A stretch of DNA of 64,000 bases from Ignavibacteria bacterium. GTDB taxonomy: Bacteria; Bacteroidota; Ignavibacteria; Kapaibacteriales; Kapaibacteriaceae. The DNA is taken from NCBI GenBank assembly GCA_947458785.1, contig CANGZU010000002.1, positions 1,770 to 65,769 on the forward strand, written 5' to 3'. Under the pieces are notes generated by a model. The model saw only the letters and a list, made by a program, of their open reading frames with translations. It made no database searches and was not told where the DNA came from. Position 1 is the stretch's first letter; every line of letters starts with the position of its first letter. Below are positions 377-14,084 of this stretch, piece after piece. The translations under genes were made by a program, and so were the position numbers.

Positions 377-2535
377 CGATAGAGTCTGTCGAAGAGCTTT
401 TCCGAGGTCTGAATCGCGATCCATTCATCAATGTAGCGGTGCCATGCTACATCGTCGCCAGCAAGTAACATGACCATCTGATTCGGGAGTTCACCACCGA
501 AGACGGAGAGTACGTCGGTCTTCGGGTACAACACGCTCCATGCAGAGCCTCCTTCAGCATTCCACAGCAAAGCATCATACGCGCTCGGTTCACCTTGTGC
601 AAAGAAGGACTGAACATCTGGTATGCGGACAAATGATACGGGAACAGGTGGTCCCGGTGACCCAAGATGTGTCTCGATCGCATCTTTGAGATCCGATGAC
701 GGAAGGTACCTGTCTGCAACGGCAATGCGAATCGGGCTATCAGGCTTCCGAAGCTCTGCACTCTGAACCTTTTGCACCATATCATGCCAAACAACAAGCG
801 CACGATGAATGGTCTGATACCCATTGCTCGTATGAATCCGTGCCGCCCGGTAGGCGTTTTCCTCAATACCTCCGAGGACTAGGTCAAGCTGCTCATTGGT
901 GAGCATCTGCTCAAGCACGTCGAGCGGTGCCTCGACGAGTTGAACACGCAGTTCACTGAAGTTGGCAATCGTCTGGGCTACGTCTACATCATATCCGATG
1001 AGCCTGCCTGTTTGCGAACGAAATGACCAAGGAACATCAAGAGTCTTGATGCCGATACGGATTGCCCCCCTCATGCGTATCGAGTCTAGACGTGCAGTCT
1101 GCCGAGGGAACTTGGCTTCCGATACCTCGTCAATAGAAGCAACTTTGACATGTGAAGTGATTGAGTTACGCACTTCTACAAGGGGCTTGCGCGACATCAA
1201 CACTTCGTTCTTCTTATACGAACCAGCAAGCGTGTTCGTTAGAAGTGCAAAAATGCCTAGCGTCATGAACGCGCCAAGTGACAGCGAGGTTGCAAGCGTG
1301 CTAAACAATCGTCGCTTGTTCAATCGAAGAGTTCCAGTTGTAACGCCAACGATACAGATCACAAGTACGATCAAACCAATCAATGAGAGTGTCTTCTCGG
1401 TACGATAGATCCACTCTGTGTTGAGAAAGAAGATGTTGAGCAGATTCTCTGGTAGTGATGCAGCTGCAAGCTCCTGTCGGACAACGGAACGAATGCCCCC
1501 TATCGAACCTGGGATTCCAGTAGCAAGCATATGCAGCTTTTGCATAATGGTGAAGGACCTATCGGCGTACCAACCCATGAATGGTACCATCATCAGCATG
1601 TATACTTGACCAAGTGTTGGGAGCGCAAAACCCACCGGGACTGCGGCACCGATCTGTTCATGCGTCGTAGATATAATGTCGGTATTACGGTCTTTGAACT
1701 TCTCCGTGAGAACGTCCTGGAGGCTTGCTACCAGGGTGGGCAGACTGATGATGAGATTCGATGTGCTTGCTGTGAGGATAAGGGGCGCTTTGATGATAGA
1801 CCAGAGCTCTTTCCATGTAAGAGTCGAGAAGCTCATGGTAAGGCCAATCACGGTGATGGCTAGGAGCATAGCACCGGTTAGGCCAATCACTGGTAGCGCA
1901 TGTAATCGTATGAGTTCATCAGTGTTGGCAGCAGACAACGTTGTGCTAACAAGTGAGAACACTGCTATTGGCGTCATCTTGAGCACAACCTTGTTGAGCT
2001 TGCGGAAGAGCTCACGAGCGCTGTTCATGGGCACCAGTAGAACATCGCGTTCCTTTATGCCCTGCAGAACAAGTCCCGCAAATGCGCTAAAGAGCACAAC
2101 GGCAGGGAAGTTGTCTTCGGCCATTGCCGTAAAGATGTTGAAGGGAAGAAACTTCTCGATCAGGTTCATCTGTGGCGGTTCTGCTAGCAGACTCGGGCTA
2201 AAGAAGTTCGATGATGTGAGAGGGGGCAGCCATGTTGGGACAATGATCACAGCGATGCTGGCAACGATCACTAGCAGAAGGAAGACGAGTCCACCAGTAC
2301 GCAGCAGAGTGCGCAGAGAATTGCTGCTAAGGCCACCCAAGGAACATGCTAGCTCGAGCATGATGAAGGGCATCGTGACCAATTGCGACGCTCGAATGAA
2401 GATCGTACCAACTACCGACCAATAGTCTGTATAGTGCGGAACAAGCCAAGAGGCAAGTATCCCAAGCATCAGGCCGAGTAGGCACTTGGCCCCAAAGGAT
2501 GTGGACTTCAATCGTTGTAACAAAACACTCATCAT
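352..2535 (-). CDS. Fusion membrane protein: DAACS (sodium:dicarboxylate symporter family)-like domain, one extra TM helix, then a family-3 periplasmic solute-binding domain
   Basis: 727 aa ORF. The N-terminal ~400 aa are polytopic with DAACS-like segments (FLPFNIFTAMAEDNFPAVVLFSAFAGLVLQ, TASTSNLIISLPT, FLNTEWIYRTEKTLSLIG). An extra hydrophobic helix (STLATSLSLGAFMTLGIFALL) follows. The C-terminal part reads like SBP_bac_3 (RLDSIRMRGAIRIGIKTLDVPWSFRSQTGRLIGYDVDVAQ...LDLVLGGI). Confidence 0.75.
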   Translation of the reverse strand: MMSVLLQRLKSTSFGAKCLLGLMLGILASWLVPHYTDYWSVVGTIFIRASQLVTMPFIMLELACSLGGLSSNSLRTLLRTGGLVFLLLVIVASIAVIIVPTWLPPLTSSNFFSPSLLAEPPQMNLIEKFLPFNIFTAMAEDNFPAVVLFSAFAGLVLQGIKERDVLLVPMNSARELFRKLNKVVLKMTPIAVFSLVSTTLSAANTDELIRLHALPVIGLTGAMLLAITVIGLTMSFSTLTWKELWSIIKAPLILTASTSNLIISLPTLVASLQDVLTEKFKDRNTDIISTTHEQIGAAVPVGFALPTLGQVYMLMMVPFMGWYADRSFTIMQKLHMLATGIPGSIGGIRSVVRQELAAASLPENLLNIFFLNTEWIYRTEKTLSLIGLIVLVICIVGVTTGTLRLNKRRLFSTLATSLSLGAFMTLGIFALLTNTLAGSYKKNEVLMSRKPLVEVRNSITSHVKVASIDEVSEAKFPRQTARLDSIRMRGAIRIGIKTLDVPWSFRSQTGRLIGYDVDVAQTIANFSELRVQLVEAPLDVLEQMLTNEQLDLVLGGIEENAYRAARIHTSNGYQTIHRALVVWHDMVQKVQSAELRKPDSPIRIAVADRYLPSSDLKDAIETHLGSPGPPVPVSFVRIPDVQSFFAQGEPSAYDALLWNAEGGSAWSVLYPKTDVLSVFGGELPNQMVMLLAGDDVAWHRYIDEWIAIQTSEKLFDRLYRHWILVSE

Positions 2536-2549
2536 GCGTAATCAAGCCT

Positions 2550-4754
2550 TTACAAGTAGTCGTCCGATTCAGATGGAATCGCCTGTATCCAGTGTTTGTG
2601 AAGTAAACTGAAGAGTCCACGTTGTGTTTCAGAGGCTATCCAAACATCAATGAATTCTTCGAATACATCATTATCGCCCGCTATCAGCATAACAAGTGAC
2701 GACGACAATTCACGTCCAAAGGTTGGGTACATTGTAAACTCGGGATGCAGAATGGCCAACGTTGCACCTGCCTCGGCTGTGGTCAGCATTGCGTCGATGC
2801 CGAGTTTGTGATGCGATGCTATGAACTCCTTGATCGAAGGGAGTCGTACAAAGCGAACATCAGCAGGTGCAGGCAGGTAACTCAGCTTTTTCGCTATAGC
2901 ATATCTCAGTGCGGACGTAAGGTCTACTTTATCTGGTACACCAATGATGAACGGACGCCCTAATGTACCTTCACGAGCCTTTGCAAGAGCTTGATAGTGC
3001 TTGTCCTCAACAAGGAATGCACCATGCACTGTCTGATAGCCAGCACTGATGTTGAGTCCACTGTGTAAAAGGGTGAAATCAGGAAGTTGGCCGATTGCAA
3101 TGTCAACACGTTCTGAGCCAACGAGGGTGTCGATGAGTTTCAATGGAGCAACGTAATATCTGATACTTACGTTCAGCGACTGAGCTAACGCTTGTACAAC
3201 GTCGATGTCATGTCCCAACAACGTACCATGTTCATCAAGTCGAGCATAGGGTAAACCAACCAAATTCACTGCAACCCGCACAAATCCACGCTTTCGAATA
3301 GAATCTAGTCGCACCGGCATAGGCGACAGATCTTGAAATGCAGAATCACGTGTATTGTAGACTCTTACCATTGTGGACTTCTGAAGCTCAGGTACTATTG
3401 GGCGTAGCCTAAGCAGAATGTCATCGTTGACATACGTGGACGACAGTGCACTCGCCAAGTAGGTTGGCACCAGCAATGACGAGGCAACGATTATCGTTGA
3501 CGCGCAGAAAAGCATGGCCCCAAGTCGAGTGTATCGAACGCGAAACGTCTTGTTATACATGGCCGCGAGAACCATTGCAAGTGCAAGCAGTCCTACAGCA
3601 GATAGCGACTTCTCAAGACGGGCTATCCATTCATAGTTCACACTTAGCACTTCCATAACATCGGGTGGTAAGTGTGACGCAACAACCTCTTTGCGTATAG
3701 CAATCGCGATGCCGCCGGTAACTGTCGGTATGGCAGTAATCAGCATCTTCAATCGTGATAGTAGATCCATCGGGCGATCGATATACCACGCCATGTAGGG
3801 CACAATAGAGACCATAAAGACTTGCCCAACAGACGGTAGGGCATAGCCGATGGAGATACTTGTACCAATCTGCTCAGATAGTGAATCGATGTGTTGAGCG
3901 TTTGAATGTGATTCTGACTTCAGGAGCGTTCGCAATGATTCAACGATCATTGGCAATGCAATGAACAAGCTCCCACTGCTGAAGGTAACAGCAATGGGCC
4001 CCCGTAATGCGCGTAGCACGTCTAACAGTCGCAATGATGTAAAACTGACCACGCCCCCTATCATCACGACAATCAGGGCCATTGCTCCACAGAGCGTAAC
4101 CACTGGCAGTGCATGTAGTTTGTACAACTCATTGAAGTCGATATCAGAGGTTGATACTATCGTCAATGCCAGCACTCCGAGAGGCATGACTCGTGCAATG
4201 TACCCGTTGAATCTGCTGATGACCGCGCGAAGCTGATCTAATGGGGCTAGCAATACACCCTTGCGTTCAACCTGCTGCAATAGAACCCCTGCAGCTAGGC
4301 TGACGATAACAATTGCTGGGTAGTTGTCCTCTGTTAACGCTTTGAAGATATTGAATGGAAAGAACGTATCGTAGAGGTTTCCTGATTCAGCAACATCGAG
4401 CATTGCTGGCGTGAAAAAACCAGATGTGACCATCTCTGGCAGTAACGATGGTGTATACAGGCATGCAATAGCAGCAATTGTTATCAGGGCAGCGATGGTC
4501 ATAGCTCCGGTTCGTACGACCACCCGTAGGCTCTGGTCAGACAGACTGCCAATTGAACAAAGCAGTTCCAGTATCATGTACGGCAATACGGCAAACGTAG
4601 AGATGCGAACAAAGATTGTAGCTGCTGGTTCAAAAAACGGGACAGACTCGGGAATACCAGAGGCAATGGCTAACCCAAGTAGTAGGGCTGCAACGCAACG
4701 ACCACTATTCGTGGTTGGCATCAATCTGTTTATCATTTGCGGTATTTGCACCAT
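2550..4754 (-). CDS. Paralogue of the downstream gene: DAACS-like domain, extra TM helix, family-3 solute-binding domain
   Basis: 734 aa ORF, colinear with 352..2535 (roughly 35-40% identity by eye) and with the same architecture (FFPFNIFKALTEDNYPAIVIVS; RLDSIRKRGFVRVAVNLVGLPYARLDEHGTLLGHDIDVVQ). By alignment to the paralogue the start may be the in-frame ATG at 4736 or 4721. Confidence 0.75.
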   Translation of the reverse strand: MVQIPQMINRLMPTTNSGRCVAALLLGLAIASGIPESVPFFEPAATIFVRISTFAVLPYMILELLCSIGSLSDQSLRVVVRTGAMTIAALITIAAIACLYTPSLLPEMVTSGFFTPAMLDVAESGNLYDTFFPFNIFKALTEDNYPAIVIVSLAAGVLLQQVERKGVLLAPLDQLRAVISRFNGYIARVMPLGVLALTIVSTSDIDFNELYKLHALPVVTLCGAMALIVVMIGGVVSFTSLRLLDVLRALRGPIAVTFSSGSLFIALPMIVESLRTLLKSESHSNAQHIDSLSEQIGTSISIGYALPSVGQVFMVSIVPYMAWYIDRPMDLLSRLKMLITAIPTVTGGIAIAIRKEVVASHLPPDVMEVLSVNYEWIARLEKSLSAVGLLALAMVLAAMYNKTFRVRYTRLGAMLFCASTIIVASSLLVPTYLASALSSTYVNDDILLRLRPIVPELQKSTMVRVYNTRDSAFQDLSPMPVRLDSIRKRGFVRVAVNLVGLPYARLDEHGTLLGHDIDVVQALAQSLNVSIRYYVAPLKLIDTLVGSERVDIAIGQLPDFTLLHSGLNISAGYQTVHGAFLVEDKHYQALAKAREGTLGRPFIIGVPDKVDLTSALRYAIAKKLSYLPAPADVRFVRLPSIKEFIASHHKLGIDAMLTTAEAGATLAILHPEFTMYPTFGRELSSSLVMLIAGDNDVFEEFIDVWIASETQRGLFSLLHKHWIQAIPSESDDYL

Positions 4755-4810
4755 CGCAATATCGCGAAAAGGATGTGTGCGGCGACGAACAATTGCCTGT
4801 AATTTCGTTG

Positions 4811-5500
4811 ATGAATCAGATTGCAGAAAATCTCAAGGCAGTGCACGAACGAATCGATCTGGCTTGCTCCTTGTATCATCGATTGCCGCAGAGCGTTCAA
4901 CTTATGCTGGCAACAAAGACACAAACCGATAACGTTCTTCGCTCAGCTTTTGAAGCAGGTGAAACTCTCTTTGGGGAGAATCGTGTCCAAGAACTTGTGC
5001 CAAAGACATCAGAGTTGGCAGATCTACCAATCACATGGCACTTCATTGGTCACCTCCAAACGAATAAGGTCAAGGACGTGGTTGGTCGTGCCAGTTGCAT
5101 TCAATCAGTAGATCGTCAGTCACTTGTCGAGGCAATCCATAACGAGTGCACAAAGAAGCAAAGAGTGATCGACGTCATGATCGAGGTGAATACGTCGTTT
5201 GAAGAAAGCAAACATGGACTTCATCCGGATAATGCACCAGCATTCGTCGAAATGATCTCCGCTTATTCGACCATGCGCGTAAGGGGCTTCATGACAATCG
5301 GAGCGAACGTCGATGATGAGATAACTGTTCGCAAAGGATTCGCCATGCTTCGCGAACTGCGTGATCTTAGTCTGAGCATTCTACCGCAGGCCACTGAGCT
5401 TTCTATGGGTATGTCACACGATCTTGAGTGGGCTATCGCCGAAGGTTCGACCATAGTGCGCGTGGGAAGTGCCGTATTTGGTCAGCGTCCTAGCGCATGA
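4811..5500 (+). CDS. yggS: YggS-family pyridoxal-phosphate homeostasis protein
   Basis: Motifs ENRVQEL, WHFIGHLQTNKVKDVV, GMSHDLEWAIAEGSTIVRVGSAVFG. The start is set at the internal ATG at 4811 (MNQIAENLKAV...), which gives a canonical ~229 aa length and avoids overlap with the divergent gene. Confidence 0.85.
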   Translation: MNQIAENLKAVHERIDLACSLYHRLPQSVQLMLATKTQTDNVLRSAFEAGETLFGENRVQELVPKTSELADLPITWHFIGHLQTNKVKDVVGRASCIQSVDRQSLVEAIHNECTKKQRVIDVMIEVNTSFEESKHGLHPDNAPAFVEMISAYSTMRVRGFMTIGANVDDEITVRKGFAMLRELRDLSLSILPQATELSMGMSHDLEWAIAEGSTIVRVGSAVFGQRPSA

Positions 5501-7064
5501 TCACAACCGGCACCGACGTTGCGCCCAATTCGGTCGATACACGAAGAGTGTATTTTCCCGCTGGCAGGTGGCTAACATCTACGTTCGAGTCTGAAAGTCC
5601 TTGCTGAACCATATGCGGCTGGGCGTCATGATAGACGCGGTTTCCTGAGACGTCAATCAGTTCAATAGTAGCAGTACGCTCCTGATCACTTTCGATGATC
5701 ATGCGAATGCGCTCACGACTGGGGTTGGGCACCACAGAAACGTCCAGGCCTTTGAGGAGCTCGCGCTCATGAACGGATGTCGGAATTGGTGTGTCCATAT
5801 CGATCGATTCATCACCCGGCTGATAGGGGAGCCAGTGAAAGTAGCACAGTAGCATTTCATCTGTTGTTCCCTCGCCCCATCGAACTTCTTTTGGCGGATT
5901 ATTGGGGTTGTTCAGATTATTGATCGTGTTGTCGTATGTAGCGATGTAGTGGAGTTTAGAGCCACGTGGGATACGAACAGGATTCTTGTACGTATAGCCC
6001 CCTTGCCAATGGAAGTCCCATTGATCGAGCTTGATGAGGTTGATCGTATCACCCTTGGGTGTTACAGCAAAAGCCCTGCAGTCGCGCCCTAGAAGGTGCA
6101 TATGCGGAGCGATTCCGAGCAAGCTGATCTCGAGTGGAGTGGTATACGATGTGGTAAAGATCGGTACCTTATTGGCTGGAATGATGAACTTCTGCCCAGC
6201 CACCAAGTTGTTGGGCGACATAGGGAACTCCTGCACCTGACGCACGTCGTCGTTTTCATGGAAGAATACGTTCACGTGTGATTGGTCGTACTGTTCTGTC
6301 GTTGAAGGGGCGTAATGCACTTGAATAATCAGATCAGAGTTCTTGTGCATCGTAGCGCCGATCGTGGGCGGATAGAATCGCGTCTGTGCGCCTGGAACCC
6401 ACCCGAGAAACGAGGCGGCAGATTCAAATCCTGGATCGCCAAAACCGGAATAACCGGGGAGCTGATCTTCCGCATCTTTCTTGCGCGCTGTAGCCGTTGT
6501 ATCGAGGAAGTAAAGCACGTGGTGAACTACGGCGGCATTTCCCGGACGGAATTCCAGCGCTTTGATGTGTCGATCACGCAGAAGATTTGTCGGCAGCACG
6601 AAGAACCGATAGACGTCGCGATTGTTTCCCCGAACGGTCCACCTTTCGCTCATGGTGAGTACCATATCGGGCTTGCCAAGCTGCGAACCACTCGGAAATG
6701 TTGGGAGCTTAGGAGCGGCTGCAAGATCGCCCGAAGGAGTATCTGCATCTACCCAGTCTGAGATTGTTTGAATTTCGTCTTCTGTGAGAGAACGATCCCC
6801 AACGAAACTACCATGACCCTTTACCGGAGGCCACGGTGGCATTTCCTTCTTCGTCACTGCCCGCTTGATAGAATATGCGAAGTCAACCGCCTGCTCATAC
6901 GATTCAAGTGTGAAAGGGGCTATCTCTCCGCTGCGGTGGCATGGAGTGCAATTCTTGTAGATGATCTTTGCGACGTTGGAAGACCATGTGGGCGCTGAAC
7001 CTTGTGCCAGTGCGGCAATGGCTGCGAACACAATTGTGAGACCTACAGTGAGAGTTTGCTTCAT
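5490..7064 (-). CDS. Secreted fusion: c-type cytochrome domain, PHM/DBH-like copper type II monooxygenase domain, T9SS C-terminal sorting domain
   Basis: Signal peptide (MKQTLTVGLTIVFAAIAALAQG). CTPCH haem c motif with a downstream KKEMPPWPP. Candidate Cu ligands: VVHHVLYF, VHYAP, APHMHLLGR, TTDEMLLCYFHW. CTD-like tail (VVPNPSRERIRMII...GKYTLRVSTE). Confidence 0.7.
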   Translation of the reverse strand: MKQTLTVGLTIVFAAIAALAQGSAPTWSSNVAKIIYKNCTPCHRSGEIAPFTLESYEQAVDFAYSIKRAVTKKEMPPWPPVKGHGSFVGDRSLTEDEIQTISDWVDADTPSGDLAAAPKLPTFPSGSQLGKPDMVLTMSERWTVRGNNRDVYRFFVLPTNLLRDRHIKALEFRPGNAAVVHHVLYFLDTTATARKKDAEDQLPGYSGFGDPGFESAASFLGWVPGAQTRFYPPTIGATMHKNSDLIIQVHYAPSTTEQYDQSHVNVFFHENDDVRQVQEFPMSPNNLVAGQKFIIPANKVPIFTTSYTTPLEISLLGIAPHMHLLGRDCRAFAVTPKGDTINLIKLDQWDFHWQGGYTYKNPVRIPRGSKLHYIATYDNTINNLNNPNNPPKEVRWGEGTTDEMLLCYFHWLPYQPGDESIDMDTPIPTSVHERELLKGLDVSVVPNPSRERIRMIIESDQERTATIELIDVSGNRVYHDAQPHMVQQGLSDSNVDVSHLPAGKYTLRVSTELGATSVPVVIMR

Positions 7065-7126
7065 GATTGCACGCTTACGTTGGATGATCCGCTCTTGGAT
7101 GCTCGTGCAATATGCAGGGTTTAAGG

Positions 7127-8020
7127 CTATTTAAACACCATCACTTTGAAGACGGCAGATGCCGGATCCTTGTCGGCATTATCGTAGTTGTTGAATCGAA
7201 TGGTTACAGTGTTTGCAGCTGACACCCATGCCGTGTAGCACGTGTTCACTAACACGGCTGCATTCGGAACGCCCAGAGATACAGCGTCGCCCGAGGCCGC
7301 TCCCGTAATAGTAACCGTTAAGTCAGATGAGTTGCGTGTAGCAGTTATCGGGAAGTTCAGTGTTGCCGTTGCAACGGCCATTTGACGCCAGGACATGGTA
7401 CCCGATGACGATACCTCCAGCACACCTCCGCCGAGTTGGGTTCCACTTGCTGCTTCAGAAGGCTTACTCGTTGGCCAATTGTAGGTCACGCTTCGTATTG
7501 TTGAAAGGTCGCCATTGGCGCCGATCACCAACTGCTGACTGCCACTGCTGTTCTGTACCTCTAATAGGTTTGCAGTAGCGCTTGCTGCCCCTCGAATGAT
7601 GAGGCCCTTTTCAGACGCGCTGGAAGTATTGAGTTGGAATCGACCATCAGGAGATGTTGTGCCCACGCCAAGTGTCGCACCATTGTCATAAAGGATACTA
7701 GTTCCAAGTCCAGTGGCTGAAGTGTATTTCGTAAGGTAGTTGGCGGTGCCATTGATAGTTGCGCCATTGAGCAGAGCAATCCAGCTAAGCCCGCCGGATC
7801 CGTCGTTTGAGAGTACCGATCCAGCTAAACCTTGTGCCGAAGGAAGTGTGAGCGAATACGTCGAATCGAGCGTTGGAGCAAGAAGTTGCACCACCTTACC
7901 ATTGCCGTTGTGTTGAATGTTCAGTTGTCGTGTGAGCAGCGGCAATTGAGCGTGTACCTGCACCGAGAGCAAAATGCACCCTATTGTCGTCAACGCACAC
8001 AGATACGATATGTGATTCAT
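7127..8020 (-). CDS. Secreted tail-fibre-like protein (paralogue family member 1), function unknown
   Basis: Signal peptide ending VHAQ. The N-terminal ~70 aa align with the protein at 8095..9180 (AQLPLLTRQLNIQ...YSLTLPSAQGLAGSVLSNDGSGGLSWIA versus AQLPFESREIKLQ...YTITLPNAVGSTGSLLYSNTTTGGLTWTG). No T9SS tail is recognisable. Confidence 0.6.
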   Translation of the reverse strand: MNHISYLCALTTIGCILLSVQVHAQLPLLTRQLNIQHNGNGKVVQLLAPTLDSTYSLTLPSAQGLAGSVLSNDGSGGLSWIALLNGATINGTANYLTKYTSATGLGTSILYDNGATLGVGTTSPDGRFQLNTSSASEKGLIIRGAASATANLLEVQNSSGSQQLVIGANGDLSTIRSVTYNWPTSKPSEAASGTQLGGGVLEVSSSGTMSWRQMAVATATLNFPITATRNSSDLTVTITGAASGDAVSLGVPNAAVLVNTCYTAWVSAANTVTIRFNNYDNADKDPASAVFKVMVFK

Positions 8021-8094
8021 GTTCTTCGATCCCTGGTGATGTATTGTCGGTGCACCTCACTCCGGCGCAATGCCGGAGTAAGCAGAACCGATGT

Positions 8095-9180
8095 TTACTG
8101 AGCTGCGAGAACCATGTAGCTAAACTTGCCACTGTATGCACCAGAGAACGTGACGGTGAAGCCTGTTCCAGGAGTGCGTGAAGTAACTGTTGCGGTTACT
8201 GATGTACTTCCTTCAAGTGTAACAAGAATTGCATCAGTTGCCGTCAGTGTTGTTAAACCGGTAACAGTGTGTGATGTTGCACCGGCAGCCGTTGTTACGA
8301 GTGCAACACTACGAATACCAATTGCGCTATTGATGCTTTGCCACTCTGGCGTTGCGCCTGTTCCCTTAGATACAAGTACGTTGCCAATGGATCCGGCAGC
8401 ACCATTCATTTGTAGTTCACGAGTAGTACCGACAAGATTAACGTTGCCAGTAACATCAAGATCGCCTGTCATATTCACGTCTCCAGTATGACCCAGCGTA
8501 CCAACTGTTGTGATGGTGCCACCGGTTCTACCGATAGTTACCGTTCCTGCAGTGGTGCCAGTACCGATGTTCGTAGCAAATGTGCCAGTCGATGTATTGA
8601 TGTTCGTTGCCCCGGTGAGGTTGGAGGTACCCAGGAGGTTGACAGTGTTGCCGTCTTTACCGATGTTGGTTGTAGCACCAGCATTGGTCCCATCATTGAT
8701 GCCAATGACGCCACTACCTGTGATGGACATACGCTCCAAGTTGTTCGTGATGATACTTATGCCCTGATTCGTTGAAGAACCGAGAACACCAGTAGCACCG
8801 AGAGCATTGCCCGTAAGAGACCAGTTCGGGTTGTCGGCACCTGCAGGGTCTACCCATTCGATTGCAGTCCCGTTCCAACGGAGCGAGTATCCCGTTCCGC
8901 CCGGAGCACCAGTCCATGTCAGACCACCTGTTGTTGTGTTGCTATACAGCAAAGAACCGGTGCTACCCACGGCATTAGGAAGCGTGATGGTGTATGGCGT
9001 GGTTACGGTTGAAGGAGCTACGATTGACAGAGATCCGGCTGCCGAACCCTGCAACTTGATCTCTCGTGATTCGAAAGGCAGCTGAGCGAAGGATTCATAC
9101 GGTACCGTAATGAGGACCGCAAGAGTAAGAGCGACACGTAGGCGTGTCAAGATTGTGGTTATGCGCATGTGCATCTCCAA
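8095..9180 (-). CDS. Secreted Gly/Thr-rich repeat, tail-fibre-like protein (paralogue family member 2)
   Basis: Signal peptide. The N-terminal module is shared with 7127..8020. The central part is degenerate G/T/N repeats (GTSNLTGATNINTSTGTFATNIGTGTTAGTVTIGRTGGTITTVG...). It contains the motif LQMNGAAGSIGNVLVSKGTGATPEWQS. Confidence 0.6.
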   Translation of the reverse strand: MEMHMRITTILTRLRVALTLAVLITVPYESFAQLPFESREIKLQGSAAGSLSIVAPSTVTTPYTITLPNAVGSTGSLLYSNTTTGGLTWTGAPGGTGYSLRWNGTAIEWVDPAGADNPNWSLTGNALGATGVLGSSTNQGISIITNNLERMSITGSGVIGINDGTNAGATTNIGKDGNTVNLLGTSNLTGATNINTSTGTFATNIGTGTTAGTVTIGRTGGTITTVGTLGHTGDVNMTGDLDVTGNVNLVGTTRELQMNGAAGSIGNVLVSKGTGATPEWQSINSAIGIRSVALVTTAAGATSHTVTGLTTLTATDAILVTLEGSTSVTATVTSRTPGTGFTVTFSGAYSGKFSYMVLAAQ

Positions 9181-9210
9181 TAAAGGTGGTGAATGAGAAT
9201 GTGCGGATGT

Positions 9211-10254
9211 CTAGAGATTCAAGACAATCCAATTGAAAGCTGCGTTAGGGGGCAATCCCCCTGTGAAATCGACTGTAAATCCCTGAGCCGTTCGATTTGA
9301 GATTACGCCCGTGCTCGAGGAACCGGTCGATTCCATCGTGATGAGAATTCGAGCTGAGGCCAGCAGATTCTCGATGGCTACCGGTGTGGAATTCCGTGTA
9401 TCGATTGTAATGGAGTACTGGCGTGTAGTTGTAGTGTTGATGTATCTGCCAGAGGCGATAGGCATTGTCACTACGGTAAGGGGCATTGTGGAGATCGACG
9501 TGATACGCCCATCTTTGCCCACCGTGATTCGAGGAATGTGCGTTGAATCTCCGTATGTACCCGGCGCAACGCCCGTTGACCTAAGATGCCGTGACGCAAT
9601 GGATGAGTCGTTTACCCCAAGCTTTACGGCAGAAGAACTTGGGTTCGTGATGCGGATGACAGAATCGAGTGTCGTTATGGTGATGCTTCCCACCACGCTC
9701 GATGCATCGATGTTGATATCGGTGCCATTCTGCGTGATGACGAGTCCGCCTGTACCACTGAGCCGAAGATCACCACTTGCACCATTCAAACTCAGCACGG
9801 CCCCTTTTGCATTGGGTAGCAGCCCACCGGCAACAACAGACGAGTGTGCTGCCATGGCATAAGGGGCCGATGTGAGCTTGGTTCGTGGTGAGAATGCTTG
9901 TTGAGCGGTTCCGGGAAGACCTATCTCTAGCCAGAGTTGCTGGGTAAAGTCGACATCACGAAGACTTACTTGCTCGCCAATGATGAGGTTGAACACACCG
10001 CCAATCACGGCAGTACTCAACTCATCAGCATAGACAGGCGAGCCATCTGTTGCTACAGTGAACAGCTTGACAGAGATTACGTACTGACCATCTGAATAGA
10101 CTGTCCCGTCCGGTTGAATGAGCACTCCCTGAAACGAAAGCAGTCGGGGTATACCTGTGTCTTCAGACTGAGCATGAGCACTCTGCGTTGTAGCTATCAT
10201 TACCACGATCGCGAGTATCATCAGCCCGATGTGCTGTAGCCTTTGCATTGTCAT
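9211..10254 (-). CDS. Secreted tail-fibre-like protein (related, with a different N-terminal module)
   Basis: Signal peptide ending AHAQ. Segments LSLNGASGDLRLSGTGGLVITQNGTDINIDA and GVAPGTYGDSTHIPRITVGKDGRITSIS resemble recurring phage side-tail-fibre motifs. The C-terminal module is comparable in length and alternating pattern to its two neighbours. Confidence 0.55.
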   Translation of the reverse strand: MTMQRLQHIGLMILAIVVMIATTQSAHAQSEDTGIPRLLSFQGVLIQPDGTVYSDGQYVISVKLFTVATDGSPVYADELSTAVIGGVFNLIIGEQVSLRDVDFTQQLWLEIGLPGTAQQAFSPRTKLTSAPYAMAAHSSVVAGGLLPNAKGAVLSLNGASGDLRLSGTGGLVITQNGTDINIDASSVVGSITITTLDSVIRITNPSSSAVKLGVNDSSIASRHLRSTGVAPGTYGDSTHIPRITVGKDGRITSISTMPLTVVTMPIASGRYINTTTTRQYSITIDTRNSTPVAIENLLASARILITMESTGSSSTGVISNRTAQGFTVDFTGGLPPNAAFNWIVLNL

Positions 10255-10261
10255 AGCGTGC

Positions 10262-10855
10262 CTAGCGATTGCAAGAGATAGTGGCCGAAAAGTGTTCGCG
10301 AGTAGTACTGGAAAACTGTTGTACGCTCACCCGCACGGTATAGAGTCCGTTTGCTACCGGAGTACCTCCTGCGTCGAGACCATTCCATAGGAAGAGCGCA
10401 GCATCTGGTCGCAGTTGGTTGGGTGTGACCGATCGGATCAGTGACCCACGGTTGTTGTAGATGTCTGCATGAGCAAACTCAATAAACGGATGCGTCACCT
10501 CGATGTGCAGGTTGTCGCGGAACGGATTGGGCCATGTCCATACACGAGCACCAGTCACAACATCAGACCCAGAGCCCACGGATGTAACGACCTCGACGGG
10601 AATCCAGAAACCAAGCATGAGTCGATGATTCAGCGATCGATACGTACCAACAGATGTAAGACCAACTATTGTGCTCAGCGAGAACGGCGTTGTAGGGTTT
10701 GTTGTCAGTAGTGCCGCCCCGCAGGATTGGACCACGCGCTGACGGGGCATCGTGAGCGGTACGTGGTTCGTCTGGGCATGTAAAGACTGATGCAGAGATC
10801 CGATCAAGGCTGCGAATGCATGAAGGGAGATCCAGACGAGGCGGCACATTGACAT
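10262..10855 (-). CDS. Small secreted protein with a T9SS/FlgD-Ig-like C-terminal domain
   Basis: Signal peptide ending LHAQ. The C-terminal half (WTWPNPFRDNLHIEV...ADIYNNRGSLIRSV...LFLWNGLDAGGTPVANGLYTVRVSV) matches the NPF-type sorting-domain pattern. Confidence 0.6.
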   Translation of the reverse strand: MSMCRLVWISLHAFAALIGSLHQSLHAQTNHVPLTMPRQRVVQSCGAALLTTNPTTPFSLSTIVGLTSVGTYRSLNHRLMLGFWIPVEVVTSVGSGSDVVTGARVWTWPNPFRDNLHIEVTHPFIEFAHADIYNNRGSLIRSVTPNQLRPDAALFLWNGLDAGGTPVANGLYTVRVSVQQFSSTTREHFSATISCNR

Positions 10856-10867
10856 TACAGCAACCCC

Positions 10868-11485
10868 TTAGTTGAAGTACCAAGCCAGTGTGAAGTTTGC
10901 CGAGGTAAGCCCAAGAGAAATGTCCGATGTTTCGGGTCCATCCGTCTCTGTACCTGCGGCATTGGTGATCTTGCTTGTGGAGGCCTTGTATCCAATGCCA
11001 TATTCAAGCATGAGCGAAACGTGCCTCCAAGGAAACCACTCTGCGCCAGTAAAGACACCGCCACCAAATGTTGTTGCGCTCACCTTGCTGATCTGCGAGC
11101 CTGCTGCATCATTCTTGATCTCGCCGAGGCCGAAGAGAACTTCGCCCCCTGCATACAGCGCGATGTTGTCGTTGTCGTAAACATTGTATCGCACGCCAGG
11201 TGTGATTGTAAACGACATTGCCGTGGTTTCTTCCTGAGCCGAGTTGTTCTTTGTTTCAACAGCATTGGAGAATCCAATACCAGCCCGTAAGGCGAGGTTG
11301 TTCGAGATAAAGGTCATCGCACCGAGACCGCCGCGGTAGTTTTCTGCACCAATGTCCGAGAGCCCCTTTAGGTCGAACAGCAATGCGCTAGATCCAGACT
11401 GATGCTGCGATGTAGGCTCACTCTGTGCATACGAGCAAAGCGTCGTCGATGCGATCAATGCGACCGCAACAAGAAATCGTTTCAT
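10868..11485 (-). CDS. Small outer-membrane beta-barrel protein (OmpA-beta-barrel / OmpW-like class)
   Basis: Signal peptide MKRFLVAVALIASTTLCSYAQ. Alternating hydrophobic/polar strands with G- and aromatic-rich turns; ends ...ANFTLAWYFN. The start is set at ATG 11485, which is preceded by GGAGG at 5 nt. The ORF-track start at 11500 is a GTG. Confidence 0.65.
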   Translation of the reverse strand: MKRFLVAVALIASTTLCSYAQSEPTSQHQSGSSALLFDLKGLSDIGAENYRGGLGAMTFISNNLALRAGIGFSNAVETKNNSAQEETTAMSFTITPGVRYNVYDNDNIALYAGGEVLFGLGEIKNDAAGSQISKVSATTFGGGVFTGAEWFPWRHVSLMLEYGIGYKASTSKITNAAGTETDGPETSDISLGLTSANFTLAWYFN

Positions 11486-11567
11486 TAGTACCTCCCTCAC
11501 GATGAGTTGAATAAATTGCCGGCGAAACCTTGCCGGCTCATTTCGGGTCGCAACATCATCCTTCGGA

Positions 11568-14084
11568 ATGTCTCATTTGCTACGACTTTCTTCAACTACG
11601 ACACTAGTACTCATGTTGTTTAGAATCTTGTTTTGGATTGTGATGCTGTTTTGGGCGGTGTCTACGCTGCATGCCGATGACGGCTCTGTGATCAACGGAA
11701 TCATCGTTGATAGCCTTACCAAACGGCCTATTCCGGGTGTTGCGATTCGCGCAAAGGGGGCTTCACTGGGCACCTATTCCAAGAGTGGTGGCAAGTTTCG
11801 ATTGCCGGTTCCAACGTCAACGACGCAGCTACAAGTGCGAGGAATTGGGTATGAGCAGCGTGCGATTGATATCGTAGCTGGAGCCTCCGATGTGCGTATC
11901 GCCCTTATGCCTACAAACGTGAATCTGCCCAATGTGAGCGTCGAAGAGTCGATCAGCGCACAGGAAGTGATCAAGCGTGCGATTGCCAAGAAGGATCTGA
12001 ACAATCAGAAGATTCGCTCGCTGGAACAGACGTTGTATTCAAAGGTGAAGGCAATACTGAGTGCCGGAGCACTGAGCAAGCGAGAGGGACCTTCGGAGAT
12101 CATAACCGAAACGTTCTCAACGATCACGGAGCAGCGTATTCCAACTGAGCGCAAATACACACGTATCACACAACGACGTCAGACAGCAAACATTCCGGCC
12201 CAGGATAATCTTGCAGTCTTCGATGTGTTCTTTGATTTCACAGAAGATGAAAACAATGTTCTTAACACACGGCTCGTAACGCCCCTTGGCAAGAATGCGC
12301 TTGATGAATACAACTTTGTTATCGATCGAAAAGTACTTCTCGACAATCTCTGGGTCTATGAGATATCCTTTGCCCCAAAGTCGAGGCTGTTTCCAGGATA
12401 TGAGGGGGTACTGAGTATCTACGAAGACTCCTATCAGGTAGTAGCAGCGCGATTTGCACCATCCCAGGAGACGGCGTTTCCGTTCCTGAAGAACTTTGTG
12501 ATCGAGCAGCGGTATGACCGCATACAAGACACACTCTGGGTGCCGACGTATCAGCAGGCGTCTGCAGAACTCAAAATCAAACTCATGCCGTTTGTAGAGT
12601 TTAAGGCAAGTGTTGTGGCTCAGATCAACGTAAGCTCCGTGCGGGCAAACATCGATGTACCTGATTCATTGTTTCCAGTAGTAGATCCAGACTCTGCTGA
12701 TTCGCGCGTGAAGACGGATGCACGGGGCGCTACTGTAGAGGTGCGGAGTAGAGATGGCAATAGTCGAATTGTCGTAGATGCAGAGGCGGATTCAGCCAAG
12801 CAGGAGTACTGGGACAAGTACGCCTTTGCAGAGCAGACAGACGAAGAACGGCAGATCTATGCCCGGCAGGACAGCATAAAGAAGGCTGATCCACAGGACG
12901 ATGATGACAGTCCGCGTGGACCACTAGCTGGCTCAATGTTCAACATAGGTAGCATTGGAAGTATAGCATTCGGATTAGACCCGTATATCAATCGAACAGG
13001 AATCACGGGTACATTGTACGGTCCGGCACTTGCCGTTGTTGCGCCACGTCTGCGCTTTACTGCCTCTGCCGGATTCGGCAGCGCGGGAACCCGCGTAGGC
13101 CGTGCGGATCTTGATGTGCGGCTGTTTCGATCCCGTGGCTATGGCCTGAACGCCTTAGGCTCGGTCTTCTCATCGATCGCCTCAATCCAGGATGCGCGAA
13201 ATGCACAGCTTGGCTTCAGCTCAATCGATGTTACAAACCTGATTTATGCAGAGTTCTCAGACTTCTACCGTCGAGATGGTTTCGACCTCGGACTTCGCCT
13301 TCGTGCGCCGTGGGGCGTTACAACAGTAGGGGGCTCGTGGGCACGCCAGTACAACGCACCGCTGCTCGAAGATCTCAAGCGTGAACAGGCCTTAGCCGCA
13401 CCTGGCAACTATCGTATTCTGGGCGTTCGAACACAGATTCTAGAGGGCGGCAACTCTGTTGGCAATCTCTTCGGTTCTTCGAAGGATGATCCCGTCACGG
13501 GGTCGTTACATGGTATCTATGGGACGGAACTTTCATCGAACACATCCTTCTGGAGCATTGATGCGAGTATCACGGGGCATATCCCGACGGTACGCACGGG
13601 ATATGCGCCCATGATGTTAGATCTGACGCTCGAGGGCGGTCTGCAACCGGCAGAGACGCCGCAGCAGTTTCGGTTTGTGACATTGCGAAGCTTCCCAGTG
13701 CTTGGCATGACCAACATGTTTGCAACGATCAATATCAACCGGTTTGCCGGCACGGAGTATGCAACGCTGCATGCTGAGCATAACTTTACGGACCTCTGGT
13801 GGCGGGCAATTGGTCTGCCCAGTCTCTCATTTGGCCGAGGTGTGGACCTGATTGGACGCTTCAGCGCTACGAACGTTGTGCAGCGTGCAAAGCCCCTTAC
13901 AGCTAATCAGCTCTTTGATTCTTCTAACGGCTATTACATGGAAGCAGGATTCGCTGTTTCCCGGATTCCATCATACATCAGCGATCTGATCTTCCTCCGT
14001 GTTGATGCTCGCTGGCCGGTTGGACCTCTTTCATCCCAGGGCAGCTTTGGCTGGATCCTGACGTTATCCAGTCCGCTGATGTAG
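11568..14084 (+). CDS. Carboxypeptidase-regulatory-like domain protein, DUF5686-type (large FCB-group envelope protein)
   Basis: N-terminal hydrophobic anchor, then INGIIVDSLTKRPIPGVAIRAKGASLGTYSKSGGKFRLPVP (CarboxypepD_reg-like). The ~830 aa size is typical of DUF5686 proteins. Confidence 0.55.
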   Translation: MSHLLRLSSTTTLVLMLFRILFWIVMLFWAVSTLHADDGSVINGIIVDSLTKRPIPGVAIRAKGASLGTYSKSGGKFRLPVPTSTTQLQVRGIGYEQRAIDIVAGASDVRIALMPTNVNLPNVSVEESISAQEVIKRAIAKKDLNNQKIRSLEQTLYSKVKAILSAGALSKREGPSEIITETFSTITEQRIPTERKYTRITQRRQTANIPAQDNLAVFDVFFDFTEDENNVLNTRLVTPLGKNALDEYNFVIDRKVLLDNLWVYEISFAPKSRLFPGYEGVLSIYEDSYQVVAARFAPSQETAFPFLKNFVIEQRYDRIQDTLWVPTYQQASAELKIKLMPFVEFKASVVAQINVSSVRANIDVPDSLFPVVDPDSADSRVKTDARGATVEVRSRDGNSRIVVDAEADSAKQEYWDKYAFAEQTDEERQIYARQDSIKKADPQDDDDSPRGPLAGSMFNIGSIGSIAFGLDPYINRTGITGTLYGPALAVVAPRLRFTASAGFGSAGTRVGRADLDVRLFRSRGYGLNALGSVFSSIASIQDARNAQLGFSSIDVTNLIYAEFSDFYRRDGFDLGLRLRAPWGVTTVGGSWARQYNAPLLEDLKREQALAAPGNYRILGVRTQILEGGNSVGNLFGSSKDDPVTGSLHGIYGTELSSNTSFWSIDASITGHIPTVRTGYAPMMLDLTLEGGLQPAETPQQFRFVTLRSFPVLGMTNMFATININRFAGTEYATLHAEHNFTDLWWRAIGLPSLSFGRGVDLIGRFSATNVVQRAKPLTANQLFDSSNGYYMEAGFAVSRIPSYISDLIFLRVDARWPVGPLSSQGSFGWILTLSSPLM

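What the first reader, a model, noticed from the sequence alone, without database searches (positions are those of the whole stretch)
5490..7064. T9SS-exported cytochrome c fused to a PHM/DBH-like copper monooxygenase with all Cu ligands apparently intact
One 524-aa ORF combines four elements:
- a signal peptide;
- an N-terminal haem c motif (CTPCH) with a downstream EMPPWPP, a likely axial Met;
- a domain in which the six ligand positions of peptidylglycine/dopamine-beta-monooxygenase-type enzymes can be matched by eye;
- a T9SS C-terminal sorting domain.

The ligand matches are HH in AVVHHVLYF plus H in VHYAP for the CuH site, and HxH in APHMHLLG plus M in TTDEMLLCY for the CuM site.

Eukaryotic members of this family obtain electrons from ascorbate. 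A covalently attached c-type cytochrome suggests a built-in electron donor for an extracellular or surface-attached copper monooxygenase. The substrate is unknown.

The gene lies directly downstream of, and on the same strand as, the surface-fibre cluster at 7127-11485.
Basis: partly seen in the sequence, partly recalled or inferred. Interest (0 to 1): 0.6.

Follow-up and report, generated by a model that had tools for sequence, protein, structure and literature searches.

The report
Secreted haem-copper monooxygenase-like enzyme
This gene encodes an exported bacterial relative of the animal copper enzymes that make noradrenaline and amidated hormones, joined to its own haem electron-carrier domain; it belongs to a very large family for which I found no characterised member and whose substrate is unknown.

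Summary
A 524-aa ORF lies on the minus strand at 5490-7064. It has four parts:
- a Sec-type signal peptide;
- a CxxCH/MPPW haem c module;
- a two-domain PHM/DBH-fold core;
- a type A T9SS sorting domain.

**Homology to PHM/DBH.**
- Pfam Cu2_monoox_C and Por_Secre_tail score above their cut-offs.
- Foldseek puts human DBH and rat PHM first (E 1e-13 to 1e-12).
- A profile alignment to rat PHM places all six copper ligands on the PHM ligands.
- These six residues, CxxCH and Met75 are invariant in 85 homologues.
- PHM's peptide-anchoring residues are not conserved, so the substrate is not peptidyl-glycine.

**Family.** It is huge, with 14,398 50%-identity clusters, and I found no characterised member. 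Most Bacteroidota members sit next to a small two-cysteine redoxin, and members elsewhere are fused to one.

**This window.** Its clade has no adjacent redoxin. The "fibre" cluster upstream is a variable cassette, absent in a closer relative. It lies in a conserved backbone that runs from the DUF5686 gene through this gene to yggS.

**Reading.** The best reading is a self-supplied copper monooxygenase with the electron path haem c to CuH to CuM. That path is inferred, not shown. The cytochrome fold test was inconclusive.

The parts
5490..7064 (-). Whole ORF of 524 aa (P0001): signal peptide, cytochrome c module, PHM/DBH-like two-copper core and T9SS C-terminal domain
   Evidence: ORF list and translation. 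It is single-copy in the 2.13-Mb genome.
7005..7064 (-). Sec-type signal peptide, residues 1-20 (MKQTLTVGLTIVFAAIAALA | QG)
   Evidence: Read directly from the sequence: a hydrophobic core followed by an A-x-A site. No signal-peptide predictor was available.
6735..6995 (-). Monohaem cytochrome c-like module, residues about 24-110. CxxCH is at 6936-6950 (C39, C42, H43). The candidate axial Met is in MPPW at 6831-6842 (M75).
   Evidence: - C39/C42/H43 are invariant in 84 of 84 homologues and M75 in 85 of 85.
- The Pfam hits in this protein are weak: Cytochrome_CBB3 13.2 bits and Haem_bd 14.1 bits.
- The same module in homologues P0121 and P0126 scores 34.1 and 37.1 bits, above the cut-off of 27.
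- Fold search of this domain alone ranks OmcF, cytochrome c6 and the hydrazine synthase haem domain first, but only at E >= 0.5.
6666..6704 (-). Invariant linker motif P-x-F-P-x-G-S-Q-L-G-x-P-D, residues 121-133, between the haem module and the copper core
   Evidence: Invariant columns P121, F123, G126, S127, Q128, L129, G130, P132 and D133. Its role is unknown.
6255..6665 (-). PHM N-domain-like beta-sandwich carrying the CuH-type site: H181/H182 (6519-6524) and H250 (6315-6317). Q248 matches PHM Q170.
   Evidence: - Pfam Cu2_monooxygen matches residues 152-253 at 17.7 bits, below the cut-off of 30.
- hhalign to rat PHM aligns VVHHVL with TVHHML and IQVHY with LQVHY.
- The three His are conserved in 85 of 85 homologues and Q248 in 84 of 85.
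5820..6242 (-). PHM C-domain-like beta-sandwich carrying the CuM-type site: H321-x-H323 (6096-6104) and M404 (5853-5855). It also holds the family-specific invariant motifs WDFxWQG (6000-6020) and YDNT.
   Evidence: - Pfam Cu2_monoox_C matches residues 312-412 at 27.8 bits, above the cut-off of 23.
- hhalign aligns PHMHLLG with VHTHHLG and DEM with DEM.
- The ligands are conserved in 85 of 85 homologues, and W349, F351, W353 and Q354 also in 85 of 85.
5493..5744 (-). Type A T9SS C-terminal sorting domain, residues about 441-524
   Evidence: - PF18962 scores 31.4 bits against a cut-off of 27, and TIGR04183 scores 31.3 against 23.
- All 22 members of alignment A1 match Por_Secre_tail.
- The SprA translocon is present in the genome.
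7065..7126 (-). 62-nt gap to the upstream same-strand gene
   Evidence: No terminator-like hairpin and no sigma-70-like promoter was found in it. Co-transcription with the upstream genes can be neither shown nor excluded.
7127..11500 (-). Context only: a five-gene cassette made of a beta-barrel OMP, a small FlgD_ig/CTD protein and three Gly/Thr-rich secreted proteins. It is variable and not a conserved partner.
   Evidence: - Present upstream in the relatives L001/L002 and L042.
- Absent in L014, which at 75% identity is closer to the window than those two.
- Also absent in L016-L019, L070 and L075, where the DUF5686 gene abuts the enzyme gene directly.
11568..14084 (+). Context: a CarboxypepD_reg/DUF5686 outer-membrane-type protein. 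It is the conserved divergent upstream neighbour of the enzyme gene in this clade.
   Evidence: Pfam assignment. It is found divergently upstream in L001, L014, L016-L019, L042, L070 and L075.
4715..5500 (+). Context: a convergent YggS-like PLP-binding protein (Ala_racemase_N) whose 3' end overlaps the enzyme's stop region by 11 nt
   Evidence: ORF list and Pfam. It is a conserved downstream neighbour in 9 loci.

Best explanation
**Proposed function.** The gene encodes a haem-and-copper redox enzyme. It is made with a Sec signal peptide. It would be matured in the periplasm, where haem c is attached to CxxCH and two copper ions are loaded. It would then be exported folded through the type IX secretion system by its C-terminal sorting domain.

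**The catalytic core.** The core is a homologue of peptidylglycine alpha-hydroxylating monooxygenase (PHM) and dopamine beta-hydroxylase (DBH):
- a His3 "CuH" electron-accepting site formed by H181, H182 and H250;
- a His2Met "CuM" oxygen-activating site formed by H321, H323 and M404.

**Most likely mechanism.**
1. The N-terminal monohaem cytochrome c takes the place of ascorbate.
2. It passes single electrons to CuH, and from there they reach CuM.
3. O2 is activated at CuM and hydroxylates a C-H bond of a substrate outside the cytoplasm.

**Substrate.** It is unknown. It is not a glycine-extended peptide, because PHM's carboxylate-anchoring residues are replaced. A family-specific invariant aromatic and acidic set (WDFxWQ, YDNT) occupies the CuM domain.

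**Shown here.**
- The domain composition.
- Homology to PHM/DBH at profile and fold level.
- Positional identity and invariance of the six ligands.
- Invariance of CxxCH and Met75.
- Presence of cytochrome c assembly genes and of SprA in the genome.

**Inferred, not shown.**
- Haem and copper occupancy.
- The haem-to-CuH electron path.
- Monooxygenase chemistry.
- Actual export.
- The source of electrons for the haem.
For: **Domains and fold.**
- Pfam and NCBIfam domain hits.
- The full-length AlphaFold2 model has mean pLDDT 82.3.
- Its best PDB matches are human DBH 4zel (E 7.8e-14) and about 28 PHM entries (E 1e-12 to 1e-9). The TM-score normalised to PHM is 0.60-0.66.

**Ligand positions.**
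- hhalign of the family profile against the rat PHM core gives probability 89.8% and E 1.8e-6. That PHM sequence was first checked against 4e4z_A.
- All six ligands, and Q248 = Q170, fall on the PHM residues.

**Conservation.**
- The ligands, CxxCH and M75 are invariant in 22 and in 85 homologues.
- That excludes a decayed pseudo-enzyme.
- The only invariant cysteines in the protein are the two of CxxCH.

**Family size and architecture.**
- 14,398 representative clusters at E <= 1e-3.
- The same haem plus copper core appears in several architectures: fused to an N-terminal AhpC/TSA redoxin, or followed by PKD/Ig domains and a CTD.
- This shows the haem-copper pair is the conserved functional unit.

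**Genome support.** The genome has two Cytochrom_C_asm genes and SprA.

**Precedent, from established knowledge.**
- Cytochrome c-tethered copper nitrite reductases.
- The cytochrome domain of cellobiose dehydrogenase feeding LPMO copper.
Against: - No biochemical data exist for any member that I could find.
- The Cu2_monooxygen N-domain hit is below Pfam's cut-off, at 17.7 against 30.
- Sequence searches against PDB do not reach PHM directly.
- The cytochrome c assignment in this protein rests on motifs. Its own Pfam hits are sub-threshold, and the fold search of the isolated domain gave only non-significant cytochrome matches (E >= 0.5, TM 0.3-0.45).
- A surface-exposed or released monohaem cytochrome has no obvious electron donor outside the cell.
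- The redoxin that accompanies most family members is not adjacent here. The best homologue in this genome is a weak, unlinked one: 62.5 bits, against 128-252 bits for true partners.
Confidence: 0.6

Rival explanations
1. The protein is an oxygen, peroxide or superoxide-scavenging oxidase or peroxidase. The haem-copper core would reduce O2 or reactive oxygen species with electrons from thiols or cytochromes, as part of an envelope antioxidant system, and would not hydroxylate an organic substrate.
For: - The commonest partner across the family is an AhpC/TSA/Redoxin-type protein. It is adjacent in 53 of 73 loci with adequate flanks or fused at the N-terminus.
- Uncoupled PHM-type enzymes reduce O2 to H2O2 (established knowledge).
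Against: - This window's clade lacks the adjacent redoxin.
- The partners often have CxxS/T plus a distal Cys (24 of 52) and lack an obvious peroxiredoxin-type motif.
- A His2Met CuM site together with a conserved aromatic pocket is typical of substrate hydroxylation.
- T9SS export to the cell surface is odd for an envelope antioxidant.
Confidence: 0.12
2. The protein is an extracellular electron-transfer or metal-redox protein. The haem and copper centres would shuttle electrons to or from external metals such as Fe, Mn or Cu, or humic compounds, as an oxidase or reductase without oxygen insertion.
For: - It is T9SS-exported with a haem c and two redox-active copper sites.
- The genome encodes other c-type cytochromes, including a five-CxxCH ORF.
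Against: - The copper ligand sets are those of the non-coupled PHM/DBH monooxygenase sites, not of blue-copper or multicopper oxidase sites.
- No outer-membrane conduit gene is adjacent.
- Many family members lack a CTD and are probably periplasmic.
Confidence: 0.08
3. The protein is a dedicated modifying enzyme for the neighbouring secreted Gly/Thr-rich "fibre" proteins at 7127-10254. It would hydroxylate or amidate them after export, as the last gene of a six-gene operon.
For: - It is on the same strand, 62 nt downstream, with no terminator-like site in the gap.
- The six-gene arrangement recurs in L001/L002 and L042.
Against: - The cassette is absent in L014, a closer relative at 75% identity, and in L016-L019, L070 and L075. 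In those loci the enzyme gene sits directly beside the DUF5686 gene.
- No other family member examined, among 80 genome loci, has these genes nearby.
- None of the three fibre proteins ends in glycine.
- PHM's peptide-anchoring residues are not conserved.
Confidence: 0.07

Closest known systems
Peptidylglycine alpha-hydroxylating monooxygenase (PHM, catalytic core of rat PAM; PDB 1PHM, 1OPM, 1SDW, 4E4Z)
   Same: - The same two-domain beta-sandwich fold (Foldseek E about 1e-12, TM normalised to PHM 0.60-0.66).
- All six copper ligands at aligned positions, plus Q170 = Q248.
- Pfam Cu2_monoox_C above its cut-off.
   Different: - Only about 15% identity in the structural alignment.
- An N-terminal haem c module and a T9SS CTD, both absent from PHM.
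- The PHM substrate clamp R240/N316/Y318 is replaced by A319/L406/Y408 and varies across the family.
- PHM uses ascorbate, whereas here the donor is presumed to be the fused haem.
- No sequence-level PDB hit.
Human dopamine beta-hydroxylase (PDB 4ZEL)
   Same: - It is the best structural match (E 7.8e-14, 20-22% identity over about 325 columns).
- Like this protein, DBH carries an extra N-terminal domain (DOMON) ahead of the two-copper core (established knowledge).
   Different: - The N-terminal domain here is a CxxCH cytochrome c-type module, not a DOMON beta-sandwich.
- There is no dimerisation domain.
- This protein is bacterial and T9SS-exported.
- Its substrate is unknown.
Cytochrome c-tethered copper nitrite reductases (e.g. 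Ralstonia pickettii NiR) and cellobiose dehydrogenase cytochrome domain feeding LPMO copper. These are functional analogues named from established knowledge and were not tested here.
   Same: A haem domain, covalently fused or dedicated, serves as one-electron donor to a mononuclear copper site of an extracytoplasmic enzyme.
   Different: - The copper domains are unrelated folds: cupredoxin trimer and LPMO.
- The chemistry differs.
- No homology to this protein was detected.
Redoxin-linked members of the same uncharacterised bacterial family (e.g. loci L003, L004, L047 Hymenobacter armeniacus; fusion proteins P0207, P0154)
   Same: The same haem plus two-copper core with identical invariant residues, at 38-48% identity.
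   Different: - Those members carry an adjacent or fused two-cysteine AhpC/TSA-type redoxin.
- The window's well-supported 11-member clade does not.

Membership tests
PHM/DBH copper type II monooxygenases | Two-domain beta-sandwich catalytic core fold | tested here: met
   The AlphaFold2 model has pLDDT 82.3. Foldseek puts DBH 4zel first at E 7.8e-14, followed by PHM entries at E about 1e-12 with TM normalised to PHM of 0.60-0.66.
PHM/DBH copper type II monooxygenases | Profile match to the C-terminal (CuM) domain, PF03712, above the gathering score | tested here: met
   27.8 bits against a cut-off of 23, over residues 312-412. 20 of 22 family members match.
PHM/DBH copper type II monooxygenases | Profile match to the N-terminal (CuH) domain, PF01082, above the gathering score | tested here: not met
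   17.7 bits against a cut-off of 30, although the match covers profile positions 17-125 of 130. 8 of 22 members match at E <= 0.01. The homology of this domain rests on hhalign and on the fold.
PHM/DBH copper type II monooxygenases | CuH site: His-His pair plus a third His at the aligned positions (PHM H107, H108, H172) | tested here: met
   H181/H182 and H250 align to them. They are conserved in 85 of 85 homologues.
PHM/DBH copper type II monooxygenases | CuM site: H-x-H plus Met at the aligned positions (PHM H242, H244, M314) | tested here: met
   H321/H323 and M404 align to them. They are conserved in 85 of 85 homologues.
PHM/DBH copper type II monooxygenases | Ascorbate as electron donor, and copper occupancy of both sites | not testable with these tools
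   This needs metal analysis and enzymology.
PHM proper (peptidylglycine-specific) | Substrate carboxylate clamp R240, N316, Y318 | tested here: not met
   The aligned residues are A319, L406 and Y408. Across 85 homologues these columns read A/Y/F/L, L/Y/F/V and Y/P/G/F.
Class I c-type cytochromes | CxxCH haem attachment motif in the mature protein | tested here: met
   C39-T-P-C42-H43 lies 19 residues after the predicted cleavage site. It is invariant in 84 of 84 homologues.
Class I c-type cytochromes | Distal axial ligand (Met) downstream of CxxCH | tested here: inconclusive
   M75, in MPPW, is invariant in 85 of 85 homologues. Its role as a ligand is inferred, because no cofactor-aware model or coordinates were available.
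Class I c-type cytochromes | Profile match above cut-off | tested here: not met
   In this protein Cytochrome_CBB3 scores 13.2 bits and Haem_bd 14.1 bits, both against cut-offs of 27. The homologous module in P0121 and P0126 scores 34.1 and 37.1 bits, above the cut-off.
Class I c-type cytochromes | Cytochrome c fold | tested here: inconclusive
   The isolated-domain model has pLDDT 84.1. Its top Foldseek hits are OmcF, cytochrome c6 and the hydrazine synthase haem domain, but at E 0.5-2 and TM 0.3-0.45. The profile search against PDB gives cytochrome c6 at E about 1.
Class I c-type cytochromes | Cytochrome c maturation machinery encoded in the genome | tested here: met
   Two PF01578 Cytochrom_C_asm ORFs lie on contig C3, at 98.7 and 96.8 bits.
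T9SS type A cargo | C-terminal sorting domain above cut-off | tested here: met
   PF18962 scores 31.4 against 27, and TIGR04183 scores 31.3 against 23.
T9SS type A cargo | T9SS translocon present in the same genome | tested here: met
   SprA_N scores 88.5 bits on contig C14. Other CTD-bearing ORFs are also present in the genome.
T9SS type A cargo | Actual export, and cleavage or attachment of the CTD | not testable with these tools
   This needs proteomics of the surface or secreted fractions.
Redoxin-partnered subgroup of the bacterial haem-copper family | Adjacent or fused two-cysteine AhpC/TSA-type redoxin | tested here: not met
   - No such gene lies next to the ORF in the window.
- The window falls in a clade of 11 loci, none of which has an adjacent redoxin (SH-aLRT 100).
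- The best genome-wide hit is unlinked on contig C12, at 62.5 bits against 128-252 bits for true partners.

The most novel reading that the evidence does not exclude
These proteins would be self-sufficient extracellular copper monooxygenases in which a covalently fused cytochrome c replaces ascorbate. Exported by the T9SS to the cell surface, they would oxidise a recalcitrant external substrate such as a polymer or an aromatic compound. That would make them a one-polypeptide counterpart of the cellobiose dehydrogenase/LPMO pair, in bacteria that lack LPMOs (no LPMO_10 in this genome). They would also give a tractable bacterial system for studying long-range CuH-to-CuM electron transfer in the PHM/DBH family.
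Probability: 0.2. Interest if true: 0.85.

Novelty: new variant of a known kind. Interest (0 to 1): 0.55.

Why it matters
**Why the family is of interest.**
- PHM, DBH and tyramine beta-monooxygenase are studied as animal enzymes that depend on ascorbate. How electrons cross the roughly 11 Å solvent gap between their two copper ions is still debated (established knowledge).
- A bacterial family of more than 14,000 sequence clusters keeps both copper sites intact and carries its own haem donor.
- It would offer a simple, genetically tractable model for that question.
- It would also point to an unrecognised class of extracytoplasmic oxidative enzymes in Bacteroidota and related phyla.

**What this window adds.**
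- It belongs to a lineage that has dispensed with the adjacent redoxin partner. This argues that the redoxin is not an obligatory catalytic component.
- It shows that the nearby "fibre" genes are an unrelated variable cassette.

Tried and rejected
- **Direct sequence searches against PDB.** Neither the protein nor the 22-sequence profile reached PHM or DBH. Only CTD-like chains matched. Homology had to be shown by Pfam, hhalign and Foldseek instead.
- **Fold search of the isolated haem domain.** It gave only non-significant cytochrome matches, so I do not claim a proven cytochrome fold.
- **Literature.** Four searches found no paper on a bacterial member. They covered Pfam names, PHM-like and DBH-like terms, the cytochrome c domain and the ascorbate-dependent monooxygenase.
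- **Haem-to-copper distance.** Model coordinates are not exposed to the Python box, so it could not be measured.
- **Fibre proteins as the enzyme's substrates.** Rejected as the main reading, because the cassette is absent in closer relatives and the proteins have no C-terminal Gly.
- **The contig C12 thioredoxin-like gene as the missing redoxin partner.** It is the best genome-wide hit, but it scores far below true partners and is unlinked, so I leave it as a candidate only.
- **A degenerate pseudo-enzyme or adhesin.** Rejected, because every ligand is invariant.
Full report
**1. Observation**

The ORF list shows a 524-aa ATG-to-stop frame at 5490-7064 on the minus strand. The opposite strand is closed by many stops.

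- The N-terminus, MKQTLTVGLTIVFAAIAALA|QG, looks like a Sec signal peptide.
- CTPCH lies at residues 39-43, so it is well inside the mature chain.
- The frame is single-copy in the 2.13-Mb genome, which is 97.9% complete.

**2. Domain assignment**

| Model | Score (bits) | Cut-off | Region |
|---|---|---|---|
| Por_Secre_tail (Pfam) | 31.4 | 27 | 446-516 |
| Cu2_monoox_C (Pfam) | 27.8 | 23 | 312-412 |
| Cu2_monooxygen (Pfam) | 17.7 | 30 | 152-253; spans profile positions 17-125 of 130 |
| Haem_bd, Cytochrome_CBB3 (Pfam) | 14.1, 13.2 | 27 | weak hits over residues 32-106 |
| TIGR04183 (NCBIfam) | 31.3 | 23 | C-terminal domain |

Plain sequence searches of PDB, with the protein or with a family profile, found only CTD-like chains. 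The relation to PHM/DBH is therefore remote.

**3. Fold and ligand homology**

- An AlphaFold2 model built on a 22-sequence alignment has mean pLDDT 82.3 and pTM 0.70.
- Foldseek against PDB ranks human dopamine beta-hydroxylase first (4zel, E 7.8e-14). About 28 rat PHM entries follow (E 1e-12 to 4e-9). The TM-score normalised to PHM is 0.60-0.66, so the whole PHM core is covered.
- To test ligand positions I needed a PHM sequence. It matched 4e4z_A residues 27-312 with one difference, which I corrected.
- hhalign of the family profile against that sequence gave probability 89.8% and E 1.8e-6 over 220 columns. It aligns:

| This protein | Rat PHM |
|---|---|
| VVHHVL (H181/H182) | TVHHML (H107/H108) |
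| IQVHY (Q248, H250) | LQVHY (Q170, H172) |
| PHMHLLG (H321/H323) | VHTHHLG (H242/H244) |
| DEM (M404) | DEM (M314) |

The same alignment shows that PHM's substrate clamp R240/N316/Y318 corresponds to A319/L406/Y408. Across 85 homologues these columns are A/Y/F/L, L/Y/F/V and Y/P/G/F. The protein is therefore not a peptidylglycine enzyme.

**4. Conservation**

- In the 22-sequence alignment, which reaches down to 42% identity, these residues are invariant: C39, C42, H43, M75-P-P-W, H181, H182, H250, H321, H323 and M404. So are a linker motif FPxGSQLGxPD and the CuM-domain motifs WDFxWQG and YDNT.
- In 85 loci from genomes and metagenomes the six ligands are conserved in 85 of 85. CxxCH is conserved in 84 of 84, the remaining sequence being truncated. 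M75 is conserved in 85 of 85.
- The only invariant cysteines are those of CxxCH.

**5. The haem module**

- Its identity as a c-type cytochrome rests on the invariant CxxCH and Met.
- In homologues the same module reaches Pfam's cut-off, with Cytochrome_CBB3 at 34.1 and 37.1 bits in P0121 and P0126. Seven of 22 alignment members match it at E <= 0.01.
- The genome carries two cytochrome c assembly genes.
- I modelled residues 21-130 separately (pLDDT 84.1). Foldseek ranked OmcF, cytochrome c6, the hydrazine synthase haem domain and the NOR cytochrome subunit first. The scores were only E 0.5-2.5 and TM 0.26-0.45.
- A profile search gave cytochrome c6 at E about 1.
- I record the fold test as inconclusive.

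**6. Family size and architectures**

- The word-indexed search returned more than 4,160 hits. All were named "hypothetical" or "T9SS type A sorting domain-containing protein", and they came from Kapabacteria, Ignavibacteria and Bacteroidota.
- The exhaustive search of 1.84 billion representatives found 14,398 clusters at E <= 1e-3 and 2,842 at E <= 1e-30.
- Many hits place the haem-copper core after an N-terminal extension of about 200 residues. Pfam identifies this extension as AhpC-TSA/Redoxin.
- Other hits have PKD/Ig domains plus a CTD, EF-hands, or a duplicated core.
- The haem plus two-copper unit is therefore the conserved module.
- Four literature searches found no study of a bacterial member.

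**7. The redoxin partner, and its absence here**

*Across the family*
- Distant Bacteroidota homologues have a gene of about 180 aa immediately beside the enzyme gene.
- Of 73 loci with adequate flanks, 53 have this gene within 400 nt on the same strand, upstream or downstream.
- The partners have an N-terminal hydrophobic segment and an invariant Cys in a motif that reads CxxC in 28 and CxxS/T in 24. They also have a cis-Pro TPE motif and a near-invariant C-terminal G-C (51 of 52).
- At most 24 residues follow that C-terminal Cys, so there is no room for a T9SS CTD.

*Inference*
- In CTD-bearing members the partner stays in the periplasm while the enzyme is exported.
- That favours a role before export: reducing the CxxCH thiols for haem attachment, or handling copper as Sco/TlpA-type proteins do.
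- A role as steady-state electron donor is less likely. The fused forms leave the question open.

*In this window*
- A maximum-likelihood tree places the window in a clade of 11 rows with SH-aLRT 100. None of them has an adjacent redoxin: 8 have full flanks and 3 lie at contig ends. The sister group has the redoxin downstream.
- Genome-wide, the best match to a 52-partner profile is an unlinked 202-aa CxxC protein on contig C12. It scores 62.5 bits, against 128-252 bits for true partners.

**8. Neighbourhood**

- Upstream on the same strand lie five genes (7127-11500):
  - a beta-barrel OMP;
  - a small FlgD_ig/CTD protein;
  - three Gly/Thr-rich secreted proteins with no Pfam match.
- The gap to the enzyme gene is 62 nt, with no terminator-like or sigma-70-like site in it.
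- This six-gene order recurs in L001/L002 and L042, whose enzymes are 66-67% identical to the window's.
- In L014, a closer relative at 75% identity, the cassette is missing. It is also missing in L016-L019, L070 and L075. In those loci the divergent CarboxypepD_reg/DUF5686 gene abuts the enzyme gene.
- The conserved backbone runs as follows. The release-factor and DUF5686 genes lie on one strand. The enzyme gene is divergent from them. A convergent yggS gene follows, with or without a Na/H exchanger gene.
- The fibre cluster is therefore a variable cassette inserted into that backbone, not a conserved functional partner. None of the three fibre proteins ends in glycine.

**9. Distribution**

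- In an even sample of 201 genomes of the phylum, 12 genomes carry the gene at E <= 1e-20, in 11 of 109 genera.
- Both genomes of the window's genus carry it. A second genus of the same family does not.
- It is thus an accessory, patchily distributed gene.
- Cultured carriers include four Hymenobacter strains.
- The genome has SprA and no LPMO_10.

**10. Interpretation**

The best-supported reading is a T9SS-exported, haem c-supplied member of the PHM/DBH copper monooxygenase superfamily that acts on an unknown non-peptidylglycine substrate.

- Shown here: composition, homology, ligand identity, invariance and genomic support for maturation and export.
- Inferred: cofactor loading, the electron path from haem to CuH to CuM, oxygenase chemistry, localisation and the ultimate electron source.

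Rivals are given lower weight, for the reasons listed under each: an antioxidant oxidase, a metal-redox electron carrier, and a fibre-modifying enzyme.

Earlier notes of this scan on other genomes reached similar conclusions. I treated them as leads and re-derived the points independently. What this report adds is the redoxin-free clade and the cassette nature of the fibre cluster.

**11. Limits**

- No signal-peptide predictor was available.

Noticed in passing
window 352-2535 (-) and 2550-4754 (-): Two tandem paralogous genes of 727 and 734 aa. Each combines an N-terminal sodium:dicarboxylate symporter (SDF) domain with a C-terminal family-3 solute-binding domain (SBP_bac_3). A transporter fused to a periplasmic binding domain is an unusual arrangement.
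   Followed up: no
window 4715-5500 (+): A YggS-like PLP-binding protein (Ala_racemase_N) converges on the enzyme gene and overlaps its 3' end by 11 nt. The listed TTG start may be too far upstream, because relatives are 196-240 aa.
   Followed up: partly
window 7127-11500 (-): The five-gene OMP / FlgD_ig-CTD / three Gly-Thr-rich secreted protein cassette is present or absent between the DUF5686 gene and the enzyme gene in closely related genomes. This suggests an indel or mobile cassette.
   Followed up: partly
L012 (own genome contig C12) 403-1494 (-), 1498-2106 (-), 2108-2581 (-): A 363-aa protein made almost wholly of DRRDDRGPRxD repeats lies directly downstream of two tandem thioredoxin-like genes. 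One is 202 aa with CNHC and a C-terminal IGC. The other is 157 aa with WCKPC.
   Followed up: no
Genome-search hits G017:C86:42931-44280 and G083:C1:2367799-2369124: Some phylum members carry copies of the haem-copper gene that are interrupted by in-frame stop codons or lack the CTD. These are possible pseudogenes or truncated paralogues.
   Followed up: no
L014, L016, L017, L019, L039, L041: MAG records labelled Chitinophaga pinensis, Hyphomicrobiales or Luminiphilus carry T9SS-tailed proteins. For L014, L016, L017 and L019 the synteny is also Kapabacteria/Ignavibacteria-like. The record labels look like mis-binning or mislabelling.
   Followed up: no
own genome contig C57 9509-10264 (-): An ORF with five CxxCH motifs, probably a multihaem cytochrome. 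Several dihaem candidates lie elsewhere in the genome, so the organism has a sizeable c-type cytochrome complement.
   Followed up: no
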